Below, one piece after another: positions 43,445-54,969 of a stretch of DNA of 64,000 nucleotides. Positions within the stretch are counted from its first letter, which is position 1. Each line of letters starts with the position of its first letter. The position numbers were made by a program, and so were the translations under genes. The notes under the pieces were generated by a model that was not told the DNA's origin, searched no databases, and was given only the letters and a program-made list of their open reading frames with translations. This DNA is from Malacoraja senta (lineage: Eukaryota), in contig CM075990.1 of the NCBI GenBank assembly GCA_038087875.1, forward strand, positions 6,574,001-6,638,000. The letters are read 5' to 3'.

Positions 43445-44468
43445 ATTAAGCCAATTAAATTTATCCTATCATGGATAGTTTAGTTTAGTTTAGTTTAGTT
43501 TAGTTTAGTTTAGTTACGCCCCCTTTAGGATACCTCCTTGTTCTACACGTTCCTCCTTCACCTTCCCTCCTACTGAAAATCAACCTGTATCTCTCTCTTC
43601 CTTAATTCTGATGAAGGATTGTGGACACAAAACATCGACTGTTTCTATTTTCTACGCATGCTGCCTGACTTGCTGAGCTTTTTCAGCGTTTTCTGTTAAT
43701 GTTTCAAATTTACAGAATCTGCAGCCTTTTTAATATATTTCCAGTCGGTATAAACTCACAGCGCTCGAGACCTGGGTCCGTTTCTGACCTCGGGTGCTTT
43801 CTGTGTGGGTGTTCTTCCTGTGACCATGTGGGTTTTCTCCGGGTGCTCCGGCTTCCTCCCACATCTCGAAGATGTGCGGGTCTGTCGGTTAATTAGCCTC
43901 TGTAAAATTGCCCCTGGTGTATAGGGAGTGGATGAGATGGTGAGATAAGATAGAACTTGTGTGAGCGGGTGATGGATGTTCAACACAAAATGCTGGAGTA
44001 ACTCAGCGGGTGAGACAGCATCTCTGGAGGGAAGGAATGGGCGACGTTTCAACGTGGGCTGAATGGCCTGTTTCATTGCTAAAGTAAATAATGTTTGATC
44101 TGAACTGTAATGGGAGCTCTTTGGTTTTATTACCTGCACACATGCCTGGAGATGACAGAATTCACTGCCGCTGTGCCCCGTGGTCTACTGTCTGCCTTTC
44201 TCCGTTAAGTACTAATCTGACAGACCTTTGATGAAAACACGATTTTCCACTCTGAAAGTCTGAGAGTAGTTAGGTTCACTTAAGTCATCTCACTCAGTAA
44301 AGTTGATTGATGGTGCAGATGCGACAGGATATATATATATCTATATATCTTTTTCAGAGATGCTGCCTGATGCGCTGAGTTACTCCAGCATTTTGTGTCC
44401 AGTTTTACGTTCAAAGTCAAATTTAGCATAATTTAATCAAATGGTAGGTCGAGTTCAACAACAGTAAC

Positions 44469-45613
44469 TGTCAAGTCAAACTGTAATGAAAGGTATTACC
44501 TGCCTCCAAGTTAAAGGGGGAGGAGTATTATGTATGTAATATAATGGGTGTTACCGGGCTCCAAGTTAAAGGGGGAGGAGTGTTAGGGATGGGATAATTA
44601 GGATAAGTAATTGGTGTCTTGTGATGTCTGGGGCAAGTACGCAGGAGCAAAAAAGACAAGGTGGCGTCCTGCAGTAGAGAAGCTTGTATGATTCCTCCCG
44701 TGTCCGAGCCTTTATTCAAGACTGTTCAAAGCATCCGAATACACAACAATTGGCGACGAGGATAAAACAACGAAGATAAGAACAAGGCCAGCAAGAAGAA
44801 TCAAAAACAAAAGTTAAAAATAGAAGTAGTATTTGGAAACAAGTGGAACAGCACCAAGCCAAAAGGGTTTGAATTGGCGCCAAAAAGAAGAAAGGTAGGA
44901 ACGGGAAGCAATAGCTCAGGGAAGAGCTAGGAAATCAAGCAGGGGCAGTAAGGGTCACCAAGCATGGTGTCAGCTTACCTGGAATGTATCCAGGGCTGTG
45001 CAGCCCACAGCCAAGCCCAAGCAGCAGCCACAGACGTCGGGTGGGGGCCTAGTACCGTGAAGGCCACGGACAGGTCCAGAAAAGCCACCGACAAGAGGCT
45101 GAGTCTTCAGCCCAACTGGGAACAGTCAACCCGGTGGGGGGAGAAAGCAGAGAAAGCCCGGTCGGGAGCAGAGTCAGCCCGACCGTGAACAGAGAAGCGG
45201 AGATAAGCCGAGTTACGCCCGGGGCTTTAAAAAAGGGCACACAGCACCGGAAGCGAGGAAAAGACAGAAGTTGACTTGCGGCTAAAAACGTGAACAGTAT
45301 AATCTAAGAGACTGTCCTAAAAACTGCCGCGATCGCCAGCGAAGGCATGCAGGACTGATTATCTACAGCACCCGATTGGCAGCCAGTTTTTCACCTGCTA
45401 AAAGACTAAACTGTTAAATACCTTAAGACCTACAACATCCAAATGCCTTCAAAGTAATGGCTGAAGCAATAAATCAAGTGAAACTGTCAATTAATTGCTG
45501 AATCTGCCAAAATAAAAGGAGGAAAAAAAATGGAAAAGAAGTGCTTTGGTCATTGAGTGAAATCCAGTTCATCATTTCGGGGAATCTGCACAAAAACATT
45601 AGAAGGCTTGACA
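44469..45613 (+). repeat. 5' LTR (1145 bp)
   Basis: TG...CA termini. Direct repeat of 52940-54112. aataaa signals near 45468 and 45511. Confidence 0.96.
45383..45394 (+). promoter_or_regulatory. Candidate LTR transcription start (Initiator) and self-primer sequence
   Basis: ccAgttt fits the Inr consensus YYANWYY. cagtttttcac (45384-45394) is the exact reverse complement of the PBS position. Confidence 0.6.
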
Positions 45614-45624
45614 GTGAAAAACTG
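45614..45624 (+). promoter_or_regulatory. Non-tRNA primer-binding site (candidate self-priming PBS)
   Basis: gtgaaaaactg lies directly after the 5' LTR. There is no TGG-initiated tRNA complement. It is 11/11 complementary to 45384-45394. Confidence 0.7.
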
Positions 45625-45679
45625 CTGTGACCAGGAGATCTGGAAACCTGGAAAAGAGACAGTTAAGTCAAGATAAATC

Positions 45680-48487
45680 ATGGCTGATGAAGTTACTGGA
45701 AAGTCAGCTGAGCAGCTCAAGGTGGAGAGGACAACAGCAAAATGGGCATTCTCTCGTCTTGTTAACAGCATCATTAGGAACCATAAAGAAATGTCTGAAG
45801 AGGAGCTCAGGAACAATTTCAACAAACTCATGCAAGAGGCCGAAAAAGTCATGGAAGCCAATGACGATGTGGAGGCTGGACTCATTGCAGAGCTGGAGGC
45901 GGAGCTGGACGCAGATGAGGAAGCTGTGTTAACTGAACAGCAAAAAGCCAACCTGGCAAAGACTGCAAAGGAGTGTGATTCGAAACTGAAGGAGGTCAAA
46001 GGGCTCTTCGACAAGGTACCACATAAGAGATTAGGATACAAACTTAAATCACACGGTATTGGGGGTTCAGTATTGATGTGGATAGAGAACTGGCTGGCAA
46101 ACAGGAAGCAAAGAGTAGGAGTAAACGGGTCCTTTTCACAATGGCAGGCAGTGACTAGTGGGGTACCGCAAGGCTCAGTGCTGGGACCCCAGCTATTTAC
46201 AATTTATATTAATGATCTGGAGGAGGGAATTGAAAGCAACATCTCCAAGTTTGCGGATGACACTAAGCTGGGGGGCAGTGTTAGCTGTGAGGAGGATGCT
46301 AGGAGACTGCAAGGTGACTTGGATAGGCTGGGTGAGTGGGCAAATGTTTGGCAGATGCAGTATAATGTGGATAAATGTGAGGTTATCCACTTTGGTGGCA
46401 AAAACGGGAAGGCAGACTATTATCTAAATGGTGGCCGATTAGGAAATGGGGAGATGCAGCGAGACCTGGGTGTCATGGTACACCAGTCATTGAAAGTAGG
46501 CATGCAGGTGCAGCAGGCAGTGAAGAAAGCGAATGGTATGTTGGCCTTCATAGCAAGAGGATTTGAGTATAGGAGCAGGGAGGTTCTACTGCAGTTGTAC
46601 AGGGTCTTGGTGAGACCACACCGGGAGTATTGCGTAGTTTTGGTCTCCAAATCTGAGGAAGGACATTATAGCCATAGAGGGAGTGCAGAGAAGGTTCACC
46701 AGACTGCTTCCTGGGATGTCAGGACTTTCATATGAAGAAAGACTGGATAGACTTGGCTTATACTCGCTAGAATTTAGGAGATTGAGAGGGGATCTTATAG
46801 AAACGTACAAAATTCTTATGGGGTTGGACAGGCTAGACGCAGGAAGATTGTTCCCGATGTTGGGGAAGTCCAGGACAAGGGGTCACAGCTTAAGGATAAG
46901 GGGGAAATCCTTCAAGACCGTGATGAGGAAAAACTTTTTCACACAGAGTGGTGAATCTCTGGAACTCTCTGCCACAGATGGTAGTTGAGGCCAGTTCATT
47001 GGCTATATTTAAGAGGGAGTTAGATGTGGCCCTTGTGGCTAAAGGGATCAGGGGGTGTGGAGAGAAGGCAGGTACGGGATACTGAGTTGGATGATCAGCC
47101 ATGATCATATTGAATGGCGGTGCAGGCTCGAAGGGCCGAATGGCCTACTCCTGCACCTATTTTCTATGTATCTATGTATCTATGTATCCAGGACACTCTA
47201 TGGGCAAACTTTGGAAATGTTGAATTATCCACCTCACTACAGACAGCAGATGGTGCATGTGAATTTGCTGCTGCCACCGCACCATCAAATAGCAACGAAG
47301 AAGCATATGAATTCATGCTTAACCACCTGCAGAAACTGGTAGAGACTGCAAAGGAGACGTACAGTCGGTGGAAACGTTGGGTCCCTCTGGATGAGCAAGA
47401 GAGCTTCCAGAAACACCTAAGAACACTCGAGCTTCTCGTCCCCAAGCTGGTTTCCAGGAAGGCTGACTTCATACTGGCAAGAATAAGGAAGTACGCTGAA
47501 GGATTAGCACAAACGGCGAATGCTTTCAATTATCCTTCACCAGCCATCAGACTGAGACCCACGGCCCTTCCTAAGTTTACTGGAAACAAGCGTGACTTTT
47601 ATAGATGGAGGAAGGATTGGGAAGGACTGCAAAAGCAAGGTGAACCCACTGGATCAAATGAGGTGAAGAAGGTTCAATTGCTGGACAGTCTGGAGGACAA
47701 AATTACAAGAGACCTCCGCCTCACAAGTTATAACACTGCAGATGATATCTTTCGTGTCCTAGAGAACCGGTTTGGAAATCAAACAGCTATTGCTATTGAA
47801 ATAGTGGAGGAGCTTCAAAGAATTCCACCTGTCAGAGGACATCAGCCACGTAAAATAGTGGAATTAATTCAAGCTGTGGAAAAGGCGCTTAAGGACTTGA
47901 GCGATCTCGGAGACACAGGCGCTATTAAAAATCCACTGATGACAAAATCAATTGAAACCAAGCTTCCAGAAACCCTCAAAAAGGAATGGCTGGTTTATGT
48001 AGCTGACAAGAAGAATGCTGTGGCACCAGAGAAACGGGTTGACAGTCTCTTGTCATTTCTCAAAGAGCAGGAGAGCATATACGAACCGCTCGAGCAACTG
48101 AGGGACGAGGAGCCGAGTAGAAAGGAAACTCGGACTGAACCAAGACATGGCAGAACCAAGTCTACCAAGTCAGGAAATGACCACACAAGTTGTGTAGTCT
48201 GTGGTGACGTAAAGCATAAAAGAAAGCTGTACTTCTGCAAGCAGTTTCGAGGGCTAAAGCTGACAGAGAAAAGAGCTGCAGGAAAGAAGTTGGGAGCATG
48301 CAAAAAGTGTCTTGAAGTTCATGATGATGGTTCATACTGCAAACCTGCATATCTGTGTAAAAATCAAATCTGCAAGGATGAACAGACTCCTGAGCATCAT
48401 AATTATCTGTGCCCCAATTATGAGATGAGGAAAAGCAGTGTGGATCAGAGAAGGAGTAAATTTGGTCCAGAGGAAGGTAAAGGCTAA
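45680..48487 (+). pseudogene. gag: BEL gag, interrupted by a LINE at 46007-47185
   Basis: MADEVTGK...KLKEVKGL joins in frame to IQDTLWANF when the LINE is removed. Contains LPKFTGNKRDFYRW and Cys/His clusters CVVCGDVKH..C, CKKCLEVH..C and C..C..HHNYLC. Ends at a taa stop at 48485-48487, probably a mutation in a formerly continuous gag-pol. Confidence 0.88.
46007..47185 (+). mobile_element. 5'-truncated CR1/HER1-type LINE (1179 bp) nested in gag
   Basis: FDKVPH...SGVPQGSVLGP...SKFADDTKL RT motifs, a CR1 C-terminus with frameshifts, a 3' UTR and a (CTATGTAT)n tail. Confidence 0.95.
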
Positions 48488-51400
48488 AAGAAATATACAG
48501 TGGACCAAGAGGAGTTTTTTAGCAAACTTCCACCAGAGTTGGCAAAACAATGCCGAGATGTGTTCTCCAACACTGCATCAAGAGCCTTCAACACTGCAAA
48601 GGATCAGCCAAGCCTCCTAAAAGAAGGTGGACTTCAAGAGCACCCAGTGATTATGATGCTTCTGGAGGTCGTAGCAAATGCTGGACAAAAGGTTGGGACA
48701 TTAATTGACTTGGCTTCAGATACCAACTACATAACTCACAAGGCTGCGAGTAGACTGAACCTTAGGAGTGAAGACATCACGCTTATCGTCCATGGAGTTG
48801 GGGGGATGAAGGTCCACGTAGAGACGAGGCGCTACCTTCTAAAGATCCGAGTGAAGACTCCCAAGGGCACACTCAAGTCGCACCAGTTAGTTTGTTATGG
48901 ATTGGACAGCATTGCAGATGTTCACAAACATGTGACACCACAGCAGCTGCAAAAGTTATTTCCAGACGTCCCACTTGAGGAACTTGTGAGACCAAAAGAG
49001 ATACATTTGCTCATAAGCCATAGAGAAGGTCAGCTAGCGCCTCAGAGGATTAGAACTGTTGGAGATCTCATTCTGTGGGATGGACCACTGGGAAAGACTG
49101 TTGGAGGTTGTCATCCTGAGCTGTTTGAGAAGCTTACCATGTCAGCCCACATGTCCAAAACACACTTCGCAAGATTAATGAGAGCAGCTGCTTTAAAGTA
49201 TGAGGAGCTCACTCACGCAGTCCCTGAGGAACTTTCACCAAACGAACAGGTCGCCGTCAAAGTCCAGAAGTCACGTACATCAACCGCCAATCGGGACTTC
49301 TTGGATTGGTGGAAGTGGGATAGCATTGGAGCAGCATGCGAGCCAAAGTGCGGGGATTGCCGCTGTGGAAACTGCCAGCCAGGCGGAAAAGAAATGACTC
49401 TTGCTGAAGAGAGAGAGCTCGAAGTGGTTAGGGAAGGCCTCACCTACGTAACAGGAGACCGTCACAGTAAAGATCCACATTGGCATGCTAGCTATCCTTG
49501 GCTGGAAGACCCAGCTTCTCTACCAAAAAATAAAAGGACAGTGGAAGCCACATTTCTCAGGACGGAGAGGCAGCTATCCAGAGAACCTGAATGGAAAAGT
49601 GCCTACACAGCTCAGGTGCACGACATGGTGGACCGAAAGGCTGCAATCAAATTGTCCGAAGACATGATTGCAAACTGGGAGGGACCAGTGTGGTATGTGA
49701 GTCACCTAATTGCTCCAAACCCCCACTCTGTCACGACCCCAGTGAGACTAGTGTGGAACAGCAGTCAAAAGTGCAATGGTGTCAGCTCAAATGATTTGCT
49801 GATGAAAGGTCCAGACGTCCTCAACCAAATTCGTGCCGTCCTCCTCCAATTCAGAGGCGGAATCTATGCTGCTCTGGGAGACATAAAGAAGATGTATAAC
49901 TCAGTCTGGTTGGAGGACCGTGAAGTACACTTACACATATTCCTCTGGCGAGATTCCGAGAGGAGCTGGGAGAGTATGCTAATCTTCCTTCTTTTACCCA
50001 CCTCAAGGATGAGCAGCAAGTACTCCAGAAAGACAGCTATGTTGACGACATCCTCACATCTCACAACAGCCTCGACCAGTTGAGAATCATCACAGCAAAT
50101 GTGGAACGAATCCTGAAAGCTGGTGGGTTTGAGCTCAAGCCTTGGGTTCTGTCTGGCCAAAGTGGGAAGAAGGAGGACAGTGGTACTTTAAAGAAAAGCA
50201 CAACAAAAACCATGATCCTACCAAACCAAATGCATGATGATGATAAAAATGCACTTGGTCTGGGCTACATTGTTGAAGAGGACATGCTCCACGTTATGGT
50301 GGGAATCAATTTCTCCAAGAGAAAGAAAAAGATGCGGCTTGGTCAAGGCCTTCTACAAGAGCAAATCATAACTCAGACGCCAAATCCCCTAACAAGAAGA
50401 GAGCTTCTCAGCCAGGTAGCAGGGCTATATGACCCCATCGGCATAGTGGCTCTTGTTAAGCAAAAGGGAGCGATTCTAGTACGCAGAGCTTTCCAAGAAG
50501 CAAAAGAGGGAAGCTGTTCGGTCAGAGACACATGGGACGTGGCACTCTAAGATGGACTCAGGGAGGATGCAATTAAGCTCTTTGAAGAGTATGTACAACT
50601 TGGAAAAGTCAAGTTCGTCAGGGCACTGACTCCCTCTTGCTCCGCAACTGAACTCTTGGGGATCACCTTTTCTGACGGAAGTGAGCACACCTACGGGGCG
50701 GTGATGTACCTGAGATGGGATTCAGACCATGGCCCAATTGTCAGACTTGTGGAATCCAAGGCCAAGTTAACTCCCTTGGACCACAGAGGAGACGCTGTTA
50801 AAGCAGAGATGTGCGGAGCAGTGTTCGCCTCACGCCTGAGGAAGTATTTCGAGCTACACAGTCGAATTCAAGTGGAGAAGTGGTATCATCTTGTGGATAC
50901 CCAAACAATCCTTGGTGCAATACAGCGAGAAAGCTACGGATTTCACACATTCTTCGCCAATCGGATTGGAGAGATTCAAACAAGCACCAACATTCAAGAC
51001 TGGCGGTGGATTCCTGGCCCACAAAACATCGCTGATGTAATCACCAGAGGTGCCAGCCCTCAAGACCTTGATCAGTATTCGGAGTGGCAAAATGGACCGA
51101 AGTTCCTGGTGTTGCCTGTGAGTGAGTGGCCAATAAAATCAGCTAAGGAACTGGCTGCCACTGCCAGAGAGAACATCGAAAAGTTACAGAAGAAAGCTTT
51201 TGTTGCAGCACTATCAAGAGCCAAAGTAGAGAAACAAGAACCGGAACCCACAAACCCAAAGAGACCACCTGCAGGGTCAGCTATTCACAACCTTGTTGAT
51301 GTCAAGCGGTTCAGCATTCTAACTTGACTGATCAAGACAGTCGCATGGTATTGGAGAGCAGCGAAGGGTTTCTTGGCAAGGAAAAAGCCCTAAACGATCC

Positions 51401-52874
51401 AAAGTGGGAGGCCATCTCTTTGACAGGAGTCATTACAGTAAGAGAACGAGAAAATGCTCTAAAAGACATTTTTTTGTGCTGCGCAATTGGGCACAACTTT
51501 CCCAAGCACCACAACGGATCGACTGGTAGCCTATGAAGACCAAGATTCTGGGCTGATGGTTTGTGGTGGCAGAGCTTTGAAGAGGATAATGTTGCTGTTC
51601 CCATCCTGCCCGTTGATGCCTGGGTGTCCATGCTGCTAGCTCGGGAGGCTCACAGGGAGAGTCATGACGGAGTGGCTGGGACCTTGCTTAAAATGAGAGG
51701 AAAGGCTTGGGTCATAGAAGGAAGGAGAATTGCTCAAAAAGTCGTTGATCACTGCATAATCTGCAAGAAAGCAAAGGCAAAGAAATGTCAACAAGTAATG
51801 AGTGATCTGCCGCTTGAAAGAACTGAACCTGCTGCTCCTTTTGAGTTTACAACAGTAGACCTCTTTGGACCCTACCACGTACACGATGACGTCAAGAAGA
51901 GGGTAAAACTCAAAGTCTGGGGAGTTGTCTTCTGCTGTATGGCCAGCAGAGCCATCCACACAGAGTTAGTCAACACCTTATCAAGTGAAGGGTTTCTGAT
52001 GGCTTATCAAAGATTCACAGCAATCCGTGGGCACCCCAAGAAGATCTGGTCAGATCCAGGCACCAATTTTATTGGCGCAAAACCAGTCTTAGAGGAACTA
52101 TATAGATTTTTGGACAACCTGGACAGAGCAGCTTTGGAGGAGAACGCAGCTAAAAATGGAACAGAGTGGATGTGGAAAATCCATCCTGCTGAATCTCCAC
52201 ACAGAAATGGCGCTGCGGAAGCTGCTGTGCGTGTTGTGAAGAGAGCGCTCCAAAGTTTTGGAAAAGAATCGTCACTCAGTTATAGTGAGTTTCAGACAGC
52301 TCTTTACGTGGCAGCCAACCTGTCAAATGAACGTCCGATCAACGCCAGGATACAAAGCCGGGAAGACTGCGTTCAGTACATCACACCAAATACTCTTCTG
52401 CTTGGCCGAGCATCTCAGTGCGGAGACATCAAGACTTTTGACTTTTCCAGCTACCCCTACAAAAGACTTAGAACAATGCAGTCAGAGGTGAACAAGTTTT
52501 GGAAGAGCTGGAGCCAACTCGCCGGTCCTAACTTGTTTATAAGGAGCAAGTGGCACACCACTCAGAGAAATGTCACTGCCGGAGACATTGTCTGGTTAAG
52601 TGACCAAAATGCACTGAGGGGGCAATTCAAGCTGGGCAGAGTCATCAGCTCCAATCCAGACCGCAAAGGCATCGTGAGAGACGTTAATGTACGGGTCTTT
52701 CCAAGTTACTCCATTCCTCTGACAAAGGCTTTGAAAGGAAGGGCAAGGCATTCCACTCAGGGGAAGGACAGGATCCAAGCCACGATTGTTCACAGGGATG
52801 TTAGGCGGCTGGTTGTCTTGCTTCCAGTAGAAGAACAAGACAGCAATGCATCAGGAGACCAAGTTCAAACCTAG
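48488..52874 (+). pseudogene. pol: BEL pol (protease, RT, RNase H, integrase), disrupted
   Basis: Protease-like LIDLASDTNY. RT motifs GDIKKMY and SYVDD (YVDD at 50038-50049). RNase H FSDGSEHTYG. Integrase HRESH..CIIC, DLFGP, SDPGTNF, NGAAE. Frameshift near 49940, stop at 50548-50550, and further lesions at 51320-51560. Confidence 0.92.
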
Positions 52875-52929
52875 ACTTCAAAGTTTGACTTTAAAGCGTC
52901 GATCTCCCAAGTGGTTCCATTGGAAGATC

Positions 52930-52939
52930 GAGTGGGAGG
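52930..52939 (+). promoter_or_regulatory. Polypurine tract
   Basis: gagtgggagg lies immediately 5' of the 3' LTR. Confidence 0.8.
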
Positions 52940-54112
52940 TGTCAAGTCAAACTGTAATGAAAGGTATTACCTGCCTCCAAGTTAAAGGGGGAGGAGTATT
53001 ATGTATGTAATATAATTGGTGTTACCGGGCTCCAAGTTAAAGGGGGAGGAGTGTTAGGTATGGGATAATTAGGATAAGTAATTGGTGTCTTGTGATGTCT
53101 GGGGCAAGTACGCAGGAGCAAAAAAGACAAGGTGGCGTCCTGCAGTAGAGAAGCTTGTATGATTCCTCCCGTGTCCGAGCCTTTATTAAAGACTGTTCAA
53201 AGCATCCGAATACACAACAATTGGCGACGAGGATAAAAGAACGAAGATAAGAACAAGGCCAGCAAGAAGAATCGAAAACAAAAGTTAAAAATAGAAGTAG
53301 TATTTGGAAACAAGTGGAACAGCACCAAGCCAAATGGTTTTGAATTGGCGCCAAAAAGAAAAAAGGTAGGAACGGGAAGCAATAGCTCAGGGAAGAGCTA
53401 GGAAATCAAGCAGGGGCAGTAAGGGTCACCAAGCACAGTGTCAGCTTACCTGGAATGTATCCAGGGCTGTGCAGCCCACAGCCAAGCCCAAGCAGCAGCC
53501 ACAGGCGTCGGGTGGGGGCCTAGTACCGTGAAGGCCACGGACAGGTCCAGAAAAGCCACCGACAAGAGGCTGAGTCTTCAGCCCAACTGGGAACAGTCAA
53601 CCCGGTGGGGGGAGAAAGCAGAGAAAGCCCGGTCGGGAGCAGAGTCAGCCCGACCGTGAACAGAGAAGCGGAGATAAGCCGAGTTCCGCCCGGGGCTTTA
53701 AAAAAGGGCACACAGCACCGGAAACGAGGAAAAGACGGAAGTTGACTTGCGGCTAAAAACTTGAACAGTATAATCTAAGAGACTGTCCTAAAAACTGCCG
53801 CGATCGCCAGCGAAGGCACGCAGGACTGATTATCTACAGCACCCGATTGGCAGCCAGTTTTTCACCTGCTAAAAGACTAAACTGTTAAATACCTTAAGAC
53901 CTACAACATCCAAATGCCTTCAAAGTAATGGCTGAAGCAATAAATCAAGTGAAACTGTCAATTAATTGCTGAATCTGCCAAAATAAAAGGAGGAAAAAAA
54001 TGGAAAATAAGTGGTTTGGTCATTGAGTGAAATCCAGTTCATCATTTTGGGGTGGATGAATCAGATCCCTTTCAAGCGGGGAATCTGCACAAAAAGATTA
54101 GAAGACTTGACA
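52940..54112 (+). repeat. 3' LTR (1173 bp)
   Basis: Direct repeat of the 5' LTR with an extra 29-bp segment near the 3' end. Confidence 0.96.
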
Positions 54113-54969
54113 GTAACGATTGTCTGAATTCCACCAATATCAATCTTAAAGTGAATCAAAAGAATTAGGGGCAAGATTCTGGATCTTGACCAGTCTCTCT
54201 CCCCAGGAGACCTCACCCACTATTGCCCAGAGCCTCTCCACAGGAATGTCAAGTCCCCATTTACACCTACCTTTTCCTGCTTCTGCTTTTCCACCGGTAT
54301 ACTGGGTAGAAAGAGTACAGGTACTCATATTCTGTTAAAAGTCATTTAATGCTTTTGTTTGAGAAGTCAACTCTTTAAATATTGACAAAAAGTGCTGGAG
54401 TAACTAGTGAGTCAGGCAGCTTCCTTGGAGAATGTTGATAGGTGAGATTTCGGATCGGACCTAAAACATCACCTATCCACATTCTCCTGGGATGCTACCT
54501 GACCCATTGAGATACTTTGTGCCTTTTTTATGTTCAAAGTCAAATTTAACATAATTTAGACACAAAATGTTGGAGTAACTCAGCGGGTGAGGCAACATCG
54601 CTGGAGAAAAAGAATAGGTGACATTTTGGGTCGAGACCGTTCTTCAGACTGAGACTCCAGCACTTTGTGTCTTTTTTGTAAACCAGTATCTGCAGTTCCA
54701 CATCTCTGCTCTTTAAATGTTGTGCTGTATTAGTGTTGGGTGTGGGAGGAAAAGTTTAATCTATTTACATTTGAAGTACTGGCAGTGGCTCAGAGATTTA
54801 GAATGAAGGCTTGTATTATATAGCACCTTTCAAATCCCTATTAGAACATCCAAAAGCACTCTGCATTCAATGTACTTTGCGTGAAATGCAGATATTACTG
54901 TAATGTAGGAAGCCCAGGAGCCAAGTTGCACACAGAACATTTCCACAGACATCTGGCGATGGTGACATT

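What the first reader, a model, noticed from the sequence alone, without database searches (positions are those of the whole stretch)
44492..44763. Gypsy-like PPT-LTR-PBS module captured inside both BEL LTRs
Seen: inside U3 there is a strong purine tract aaagggggaggag (44568-44580). It is followed by a 168-bp segment with LTR-like termini tgtt...aaca (44581-44748) containing attaaa in the 3' copy, then at + tggcgacgaggat (44751-44763). The same module is in the 3' LTR (offset +8471). Established: TGGCGACGAGGAT is complementary to the 3' end of vertebrate tRNA-Ser(GCT) and is a common PBS of Gypsy-type elements. Inference: the order PPT-LTR-PBS arises in 1-LTR circles or tandem arrays, so a BEL ancestor captured such a junction and has copied it through reverse transcription. 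This gives a chimeric LTR with ectopic priming signals, which is notable in an element whose own PBS is not tRNA-based.
Basis: partly seen in the sequence, partly recalled or inferred. Interest (0 to 1): 0.7.

Follow-up and report, generated by a model that had tools for sequence, protein, structure and literature searches.

The report
Gypsy piece inside BEL terminal repeats
A BEL/Pao jumping gene carries in both terminal repeats a 0.7-kb piece of an unrelated Gypsy element, priming signals included; it likely got there by template switching during DNA copying and now seems to ride along unused, making a cross-superfamily chimera that kept spreading.

Summary
The module is part of a 714-bp Gypsy piece (44493-45206; +8471 in the 3' LTR): two purine-tract units, a 168-bp LTR, a tRNA-Ser(GCT) PBS and about 450 bp of leader. 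A Mag-like Gypsy family in this genome uses the homologous LTR (up to 87% identical) as a real LTR. A module-free sister BEL exists (internal region 95-97% identical). The piece replaced about 67 bp of its U3, with microhomology at both joints and no duplication, which points to recombination rather than insertion. No circle or tandem array is needed: 3 of 30 donor 5' ends already read PPT-LTR-PBS. The ectopic signals look unused. No copy starts or ends at the 168-bp ends, and the donor's AATAAA is lost. Module LTR starts outnumber module-free ones 116 to 33. The BEL likely primes itself: its PBS pairs with an 11-base splice junction inside its own LTR. The scan noted that mechanism before on other DNA. 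Verdict: real, new variant of template-switch capture; moderate interest.

The parts
44464..44468 (+). left target-site duplication GTAAC
   Evidence: same 5 bases at 54113-54117
44469..45613 (+). 5' LTR of the BEL/Pao element (chimeric)
44469..44492 (+). BEL-native LTR start (att end), shared with the module-free sister; holds the left microhomology
   Evidence: 23 of 24 bases match the sister LTR start; joint 44492 to 45231 in reads
44493..45206 (+). captured Gypsy (Mag-like) piece in U3: partial unit 1, unit 2, core LTR, PBS, 5' leader
   Evidence: donor loci align to LTR positions 14 to about 741 at 70-90%
44513..44525 (+). first ectopic purine tract (end of donor 3' repeat unit 1)
44568..44580 (+). 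second ectopic purine tract (the donor's true PPT)
   Evidence: precedes the 3' LTR of donor copies
44581..44748 (+). donor core LTR, 168 bp; donor AATAAA changed near 44675
   Evidence: best donor 145 of 167 identical; nests in a donor clade
44751..44763 (+). ectopic tRNA-Ser(GCT) PBS, 13 nt
44764..45206 (+). donor 5' leader (non-coding)
   Evidence: no Pfam hit below E 0.1 for the frame tested
45207..45212 (+). right-junction microhomology GCCGAG; BEL-native sequence resumes
45384..45394 (+). 11-nt complement of the BEL PBS (predicted self-primer), spanning the former exon junction 45385/45386
45614..45624 (+). BEL PBS GTGAAAAACTG, no TGG start
46010..47185 (+). 5'-truncated LINE insertion in gag (source of the RVT_1 hit; CR1-like by recall); specific to this copy among those compared
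45614..52939 (+). BEL internal region, gag-pol broken by the LINE, stops and frame changes
52930..52939 (+). BEL's own PPT GAGTGGGAGG
52940..54112 (+). 3' LTR of the BEL element
52964..53677 (+). second copy of the captured Gypsy piece (core LTR 53052-53219, PBS 53222-53234)
54113..54117 (+). right target-site duplication GTAAC

Best explanation
The BEL LTR carries 714 bp of a Gypsy element in place of about 67 bp of its own U3, most likely gained by microhomology-guided template switching during reverse transcription and likely carried since as a passenger whose priming signals are not used. Shown: the donor family, the module-free sister, both joints, and the spread of the chimera. Inferred route (about 0.45 of all routes): BEL minus-strand synthesis in U3 switched at GCCGAG onto a co-packaged Gypsy RNA in its leader, ran through PBS, U5 and R, made the ordinary R-to-R jump to that RNA's 3' end, copied U3, the PPT and a repeat unit, and switched back where the unit start resembles BEL's own PPT and LTR start. 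This yields PPT-LTR-PBS without a circle. A read-through RNA or DNA of a donor copy with an extended 5' LTR gives the same product (about 0.25). Being in U3, the piece is copied to both LTRs each cycle. The donor AATAAA, which would be predicted to cut BEL RNA short, was lost. The ectopic PBS would sit only near the RNA's 3' end, and the BEL likely primes on its own spliced LTR RNA, so it would need no tRNA site.
For: Donors: 16 of the first 30 of 343 LTR-end-plus-Ser-PBS matches carry an LTR homologous to the module after unrelated flank, and 4 of 30 are BEL copies. Of 15 regions fetched, 7 are 4.0-4.8 kb elements with paired LTRs and one is 8.2 kb with RT, RNase H and integrase; 5-bp TSDs are perfect in 5 of 7 checked. 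The module nests in a donor clade (99/98, midpoint root). Sister BEL: same 24-bp start and same end, internal region 95-97% identical, no module; 33 versus 116 exact LTR-start matches. Joints: no duplication, sister bases 25-91 missing, GCCGAG at right, gapped similarity over PPT plus LTR start at left. This is the signature described for LTR-mediated capture (PMC5131818, passages). PPT-LTR-PBS at 3 of 30 donor 5' ends, both LTRs 212-216 bp, TSD perfect in 2 of 3. Signals unused: 0, 0, 1 and 0 matches for module ends with foreign flank, the one being a point variant inside a normal LTR. AATAAA is in 26 of 30 donors and 0 of 28 matched BEL LTRs.
Against: The module differs from its nearest donors at 29 of 186 donor-conserved sites but 0 of 21 signal sites (Fisher p = 0.05), and both purine tracts are unchanged too; a pure passenger should decay evenly, unless much of that change arose while it was still a Gypsy. 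Within the BEL family the PBS is intact in 25 of 29 LTRs, but the family is too young for power (0.8% against 0.9-1.9%). The exact donor subfamily was not found (branch 0.2). No donor 5' end with two extra units was seen (0 of 30). Recombination between unrelated co-packaged RNAs is described as rare (PMC6894440, passages). The end tests need an exact 21-22 base match and see about 75% of random flanks. One solo LTR (L061) starts with a donor-like end and has no TSD. No transcription start was mapped.
Confidence: 0.75

Rival explanations
1. The piece was captured from a 1-LTR circle or a tandem array of the Gypsy element, by recombination at the same microhomologies.
For: It gives the same order and contiguity. 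Tandem arrays of the BEL itself occur here (contig C840, 6016-bp spacing), so such joints can form in this genome.
Against: 0 of 30 donor LTR-PBS junctions have donor internal sequence beyond one repeat unit upstream; two routes without a circle exist.
Confidence: 0.15
2. A whole Gypsy copy inserted into the BEL U3 by its integrase, and later deletions removed most of it and 67 bp of BEL.
For: Nested insertion is common (own knowledge); GCCGAG could be a deletion joint.
Against: No TSD remains. The left joint lacks the first ~22 bases of a donor unit and lies in a stretch of similarity, so two more deletions are needed.
Confidence: 0.1
3. However it was captured, the module is kept by selection: the Gypsy LTR acts as enhancer or promoter for the BEL, and its PPT and PBS serve as secondary priming or tRNA-fragment binding sites.
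For: 0 of 21 signal sites changed against 29 of 186 (p = 0.05). The chimera outnumbers the sister 116 to 33. The replaced 67 bp held a GC-box-like motif. The core LTR varies less among copies (0.9%) than BEL-native U3 or R-U5 (1.7-1.9%). Few copies lose it (4% gaps against 12-16%).
Against: No product of ectopic priming was found. The PBS is altered in 4 of 29 LTRs. Copy number also reflects timing and duplicated unplaced contigs. The p value is borderline and change may predate capture.
Confidence: 0.2

Closest known systems
LTR-mediated retroposition by microsimilarity-dependent template switching (Tan et al. 2016, PMC5131818; passages read)
   Same: Foreign sequence replaces part of the element, short shared stretches at both joints (median 6 bp there), further rounds of copying; a Pao element is among their carriers.
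   Different: There the cargo is host mRNA replacing internal ORF. Here it is the cis-signal region of another LTR superfamily, it sits in U3, and coding capacity of the family is untouched.
Inter-element recombination and complex elements of LTR retrotransposons (PMC6894440, passages; Sabot and Schulman 2007, PMC1950507, abstract only)
   Same: New lineages founded by a recombinant between two elements, attributed to cross-packaged RNAs.
   Different: The passages I read speak of families or subfamilies; none named a BEL x Gypsy case or an LTR nested in U3. I did not read the primary papers cited there.
Mag lineage of Ty3/Gypsy (Culex survey, PMC3286476; passages and table excerpt read)
   Same: Donor has short LTRs (160-180 bp; 119-304 bp there), a tRNA-Ser PBS, 5-bp TSDs and repeats in the 5' leader.
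   Different: Most donors here lack pol and carry a gag N-terminus followed by an ASPM-like IQ region; no tree against named Mag elements was built.
Multiple PPTs of Sireviruses (PMC2829016; passages read)
   Same: [quoted passage not shown]
   Different: Here each extra PPT is followed by an LTR-start-like unit, and insertions with LTRs lengthened by one unit show that an upstream tract can set the LTR end.
Tf1/Sushi, Tcn1 and TAR self-priming (PMC6317226; passages read)
   Same: The BEL PBS pairs with 11 bases inside its own LTR instead of a tRNA.
   Different: BEL/Pao, for which the ICTV profile (PMC8742986, whole text) gives tRNA-Arg or tRNA-Gly; the complement spans a splice junction. Earlier notes of this scan report the same on other genomes.

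Membership tests
BEL/Pao (Belpaoviridae), host element | BEL-type gag and pol domains in Gypsy/BEL order | tested here: met
   DUF1759, Peptidase_A17, Integrase_H2C2, DUF5641 in order; the BEL RT itself drew no Pfam hit, and the RVT_1 hit belongs to the LINE insertion
BEL/Pao (Belpaoviridae), host element | LTRs of 0.2-1.2 kb, TG...CA, TSD, PPT before the 3' LTR | tested here: met
BEL/Pao (Belpaoviridae), host element | 18-nt PBS for tRNA-Arg or tRNA-Gly (ICTV profile) | tested here: not met
   no TGG after the 5' LTR; 11-nt self-complement instead
Ty3/Gypsy (Metaviridae), donor | LTR pair with TSD, tRNA PBS, PPT | tested here: met
Ty3/Gypsy (Metaviridae), donor | gag, then RT, RNase H, integrase | tested here: met
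   L096; the 4-kb copies keep only about 80 residues of gag, 51-58% identical to Gypsy polyprotein P0041
Mag lineage, donor | short LTR, tRNA-Ser or tRNA-Leu PBS, 5-bp TSD | tested here: met
   against PMC3286476
Mag lineage, donor | RT/RH/IN groups with named Mag elements in a tree | not tested
   no named references on hand; the label 'Mag-like' also rests on a recalled gag pattern
TRIM, donor | under about 1 kb, no coding sequence | tested here: not met
   most donors are 3-6 kb; one 0.8-kb derivative, L158
Template-switch capture (Tan et al.) | replacement, not interruption; microsimilarity at both joints | tested here: met
Template-switch capture (Tan et al.) | event occurred on RNA inside a particle | not testable with these tools
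   DNA repair from a donor copy leaves the same joints
Tf1-like self-priming, host element | at least 10 bases after the 5' LTR complementary to the LTR, kept across families | tested here: met
   11 bases, 0 of 100 resampled LTRs; different letters in other BEL families
Tf1-like self-priming, host element | primer at the RNA 5' end, released by cleavage | not testable with these tools
   no start site mapped; the splice junction implies an upstream exon, unlike Tf1 as I recall it

The most novel reading that the evidence does not exclude
A belpaovirid and a metavirid RNA were co-packaged and recombined into a stable chimeric LTR. The captured Gypsy LTR now drives the BEL as enhancer, its PPT and PBS are kept by selection while its polyadenylation signal was purged, and this swap helped the chimera outgrow its parent, in an element that builds its own primer by splicing.
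Probability: 0.2. Interest if true: 0.72.

Novelty: new variant of a known kind. Interest (0 to 1): 0.5.

Why it matters
It is a well-resolved case of sequence exchange between two LTR superfamilies, with donor family, pre-capture sister and both joints in one genome, so the effect of a U3 swap can be compared between natural LTRs. It shows that PPT-LTR-PBS order is not proof of a circle. It warns annotators: these BEL LTRs will be masked partly as Gypsy and may be given a false tRNA-Ser PBS. I found no report of such a chimera in nine literature searches (open-access library only; Repbase and Dfam could not be searched, so the family may be catalogued there).

Tried and rejected
(1) A degenerate zinc-knuckle reading of the frame after the PBS: rejected; only a sub-threshold LCCL hit at E 0.15, and the stretch is donor leader plus BEL-native U3. 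(2) RT ahead of gag as an odd domain order: rejected; it is a LINE insertion. (3) A near-identical donor: not found; 30 of 30 top loci (40 of 470 candidates scored) lie in BEL LTRs. (4) ATTAAA as the module's polyA signal: rejected. (5) Within-family conservation of the PBS: no power. (6) Expression: no RNA holder listed. Reads laid from other coded organisms gave no start site. On another BEL family's LTR (L199) no spliced joint was listed among 14-24 reads per RNA run, and one run read through the intron unspliced, so splicing was not seen in RNA. (7) Self-complement was not found above chance in 2 of 14 elements (L204, L207), and only across the predicted splice in L198 and L208. (8) The host ASPM gene was not located; the 3 loci fetched were donor copies. 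(9) The PBS string was not in the supplements of PMC13524379; PMC3118150 has no mention of primer, PBS or tRNA.

Full report
Observation. The window holds a BEL/Pao element at 44469-54112 with LTRs 44469-45613 and 52940-54112, TSD GTAAC and BEL domains. The purine tract, the 168-bp TGTT...AACA segment, AT and the 13-base PBS are at the stated places in both LTRs, offset 8471. The offset includes a 1.18-kb LINE insertion in gag. The PBS is complementary to tRNA-Ser(GCT) genes of this genome. It is a family trait: 30 of 30 loci fetched from the top 40 of 470 candidates are BEL LTRs.

The donor. A search for LTR end plus Ser PBS gave 343 matches. Of the first 30, 4 are BEL copies and 16 carry an LTR homologous to the module after unrelated flank, most followed by leader sequence that also matches the BEL LTR (two of these loci are near-identical duplicates and two belong to one element). 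Of 15 regions fetched, 7 are 4.0-4.8 kb elements with paired LTRs and one is 8.2 kb with RT, RNase H and integrase. TSDs of 5 bp are perfect in 5 of 7 checked. The 4-kb copies keep about 80 residues of gag and then an ASPM-like IQ region. Short LTR, Ser PBS and 5-bp TSD fit the Mag lineage (PMC3286476, passages and table excerpt), but I built no tree against named Mag elements. The best donor LTR is 145 of 167 identical to the module. In a 40-row tree the module sits inside one donor clade (99/98, midpoint root, no outgroup) on a branch of 0.2, so the exact donor subfamily is unsampled or extinct.

The state before capture. A sister BEL subfamily has the same LTR ends and an internal region 95-97% identical but no module. 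Exact LTR-start patterns give 33 module-free and 116 module-bearing matches; both counts mix 5', 3' and solo LTRs and duplicated unplaced contigs. The chimeric LTR is sister bases 1-24, then 714 bp of donor (44493-45206), then sister sequence from base 92. About 67 bp are replaced and nothing is duplicated. The right joint shares GCCGAG. At the left joint the BEL PPT and LTR start align, with gaps, to a donor PPT and unit start. Reads and contigs of other coded organisms show both the chimeric form (a 209-bp contig over 44562-44767 with 5 differences and 3 gaps) and the module-free joint (6 reads), so the chimera is not confined to this assembly; how those organisms relate to this one is not known.

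Why PPT-LTR-PBS. Donor 3' ends carry one to three 55-bp units, each starting like the LTR and ending in the PPT. In 3 of 30 donor LTR-PBS junctions (of 42 matches) one such unit and its PPT stand in front of the 5' LTR; in all three both LTRs are 212-216 bp, with a perfect TSD in two. None of the 30 has donor internal sequence further upstream. So the order arises at ordinary donor ends. It would also arise if a minus strand entered donor RNA downstream of the PBS and made the normal R-to-R jump (inference from the standard LTR cycle). Replacement with short shared stretches is the signature of template-switch capture (PMC5131818, passages). I rate the routes: RT switch with R jump 0.45, extended-LTR template 0.25, circle or array 0.15, nested insertion with deletions 0.1, other 0.05.

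Are the signals used? Four patterns for module ends with foreign flank gave 0, 0, 1 and 0 matches; the one is a point variant in a normal LTR. They need an exact match and see about 75% of random flanks. The donor AATAAA (26 of 30 donors) is changed in all 28 BEL LTRs matched of 30, as expected if a stop signal in U3 were harmful (inference). Against this, 0 of 21 signal sites differ from the donors while 29 of 186 other conserved sites do (p = 0.05), and the BEL-native part has itself moved 8-12% from the sister, so some time has passed since the split. Constraint after capture is neither shown nor excluded. Within the family there is no power. L061 is one unexplained copy with a donor-like start and no TSD.

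The BEL's own priming. The 11 bases after the 5' LTR are the exact complement of 45384-45394 (0 of 100 resampled LTRs, and pair probabilities 0.54-0.99 in the fold). The sister LTR has a GT-AG intron ending inside this complement, precisely absent from 6 of 15 loci and from the module family; the three intron-less elements have TSDs, perfect in two. Across the junction the complement reaches 11 bases in the sister (9+2) and in L199 (7+4), and, by eye with one G-U pair, in L208 and L198. Two of 14 elements showed nothing above chance, and RNA reads on L199 showed no spliced joint at low depth. The ICTV profile gives tRNA priming for the family (PMC8742986, whole text); self-priming is described for Tf1/Sushi, Tcn1 and TAR (PMC6317226, passages). 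Earlier notes of this scan report the same splice-built primer on other genomes; I read them after my own tests. The intron also places the transcription start upstream of 45385, likely after the TATA-like stretch at 45226 (inference), which leaves the module in U3.

Literature seen: whole text PMC8742986; passages PMC3286476, PMC13524379 (plus one supplement search), PMC3601003, PMC6317226, PMC3118150, PMC2829016, PMC6894440, PMC5131818; abstract PMC1950507; others as search listings only. Nine searches showed no BEL x Gypsy LTR chimera; Repbase, Dfam and subscription journals were out of reach. A sequence look-up in the scan's notes found no look-alike, and a word look-up none with all words.

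Verdict. Real and well resolved. Capture is supported, the circle or array premise is not needed, and ectopic priming is not supported. New variant of a known kind; interest 0.5.

Noticed in passing
window 45384-45394 and 45614-45624; L209-L223, L174, L199, L198, L208: Splice-assembled self-primer. The sister BEL LTR has a GT-AG intron (373-377 bp in 8 of 15 loci) that is precisely absent from 6 of 15 loci (three elements, both LTRs) and from the module family. The exon junction completes an 11-base complement of the PBS in four BEL families with different letters (9+2, 7+4, and by eye with one G-U 6+5 twice). Found here before the look-up; the scan had noted it on other genomes.
   Followed up: yes
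L094, L095, L097, L099, L100, L102, L104: The donor is a non-autonomous Gypsy whose gag N-terminus is followed by an IQ-motif region about 35-48% identical to vertebrate ASPM; at least 45 places in the genome match. No paper found.
   Followed up: partly
L178, L179, L180: Donor insertions with both LTRs lengthened by one 55-bp unit, the likely product of plus-strand priming at an upstream PPT copy.
   Followed up: yes
L061 (G000:C6:66059544): A solo BEL LTR that begins with a donor-like TGTTATG end instead of the BEL end and has no TSD; either priming at an ectopic PPT or ectopic recombination. Unexplained single case.
   Followed up: partly
L170, L171, L173, L188: Elements with one module-free and one module-bearing LTR and unmatched flanks: likely recombinants between the two subfamilies after insertion.
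   Followed up: partly
window 46010-47185: A 5'-truncated LINE inserted in frame with the BEL gag start, giving a 352-codon gag-RT fusion frame.
   Followed up: partly
G000:C840:21413-47044: Tandem array of the module-bearing BEL at 6016-bp spacing.
   Followed up: no
window 45201-45266, runs X1 and X12: A variant chimeric LTR in coded organisms A and E joins donor leader to BEL sequence at a different right-hand point: a later deletion or a second joint.
   Followed up: no
L192, L193, L205, L206: A further BEL group shows an 8-10 base LTR complement offset 4-6 bases from the LTR end, with no obvious splice acceptor.
   Followed up: no
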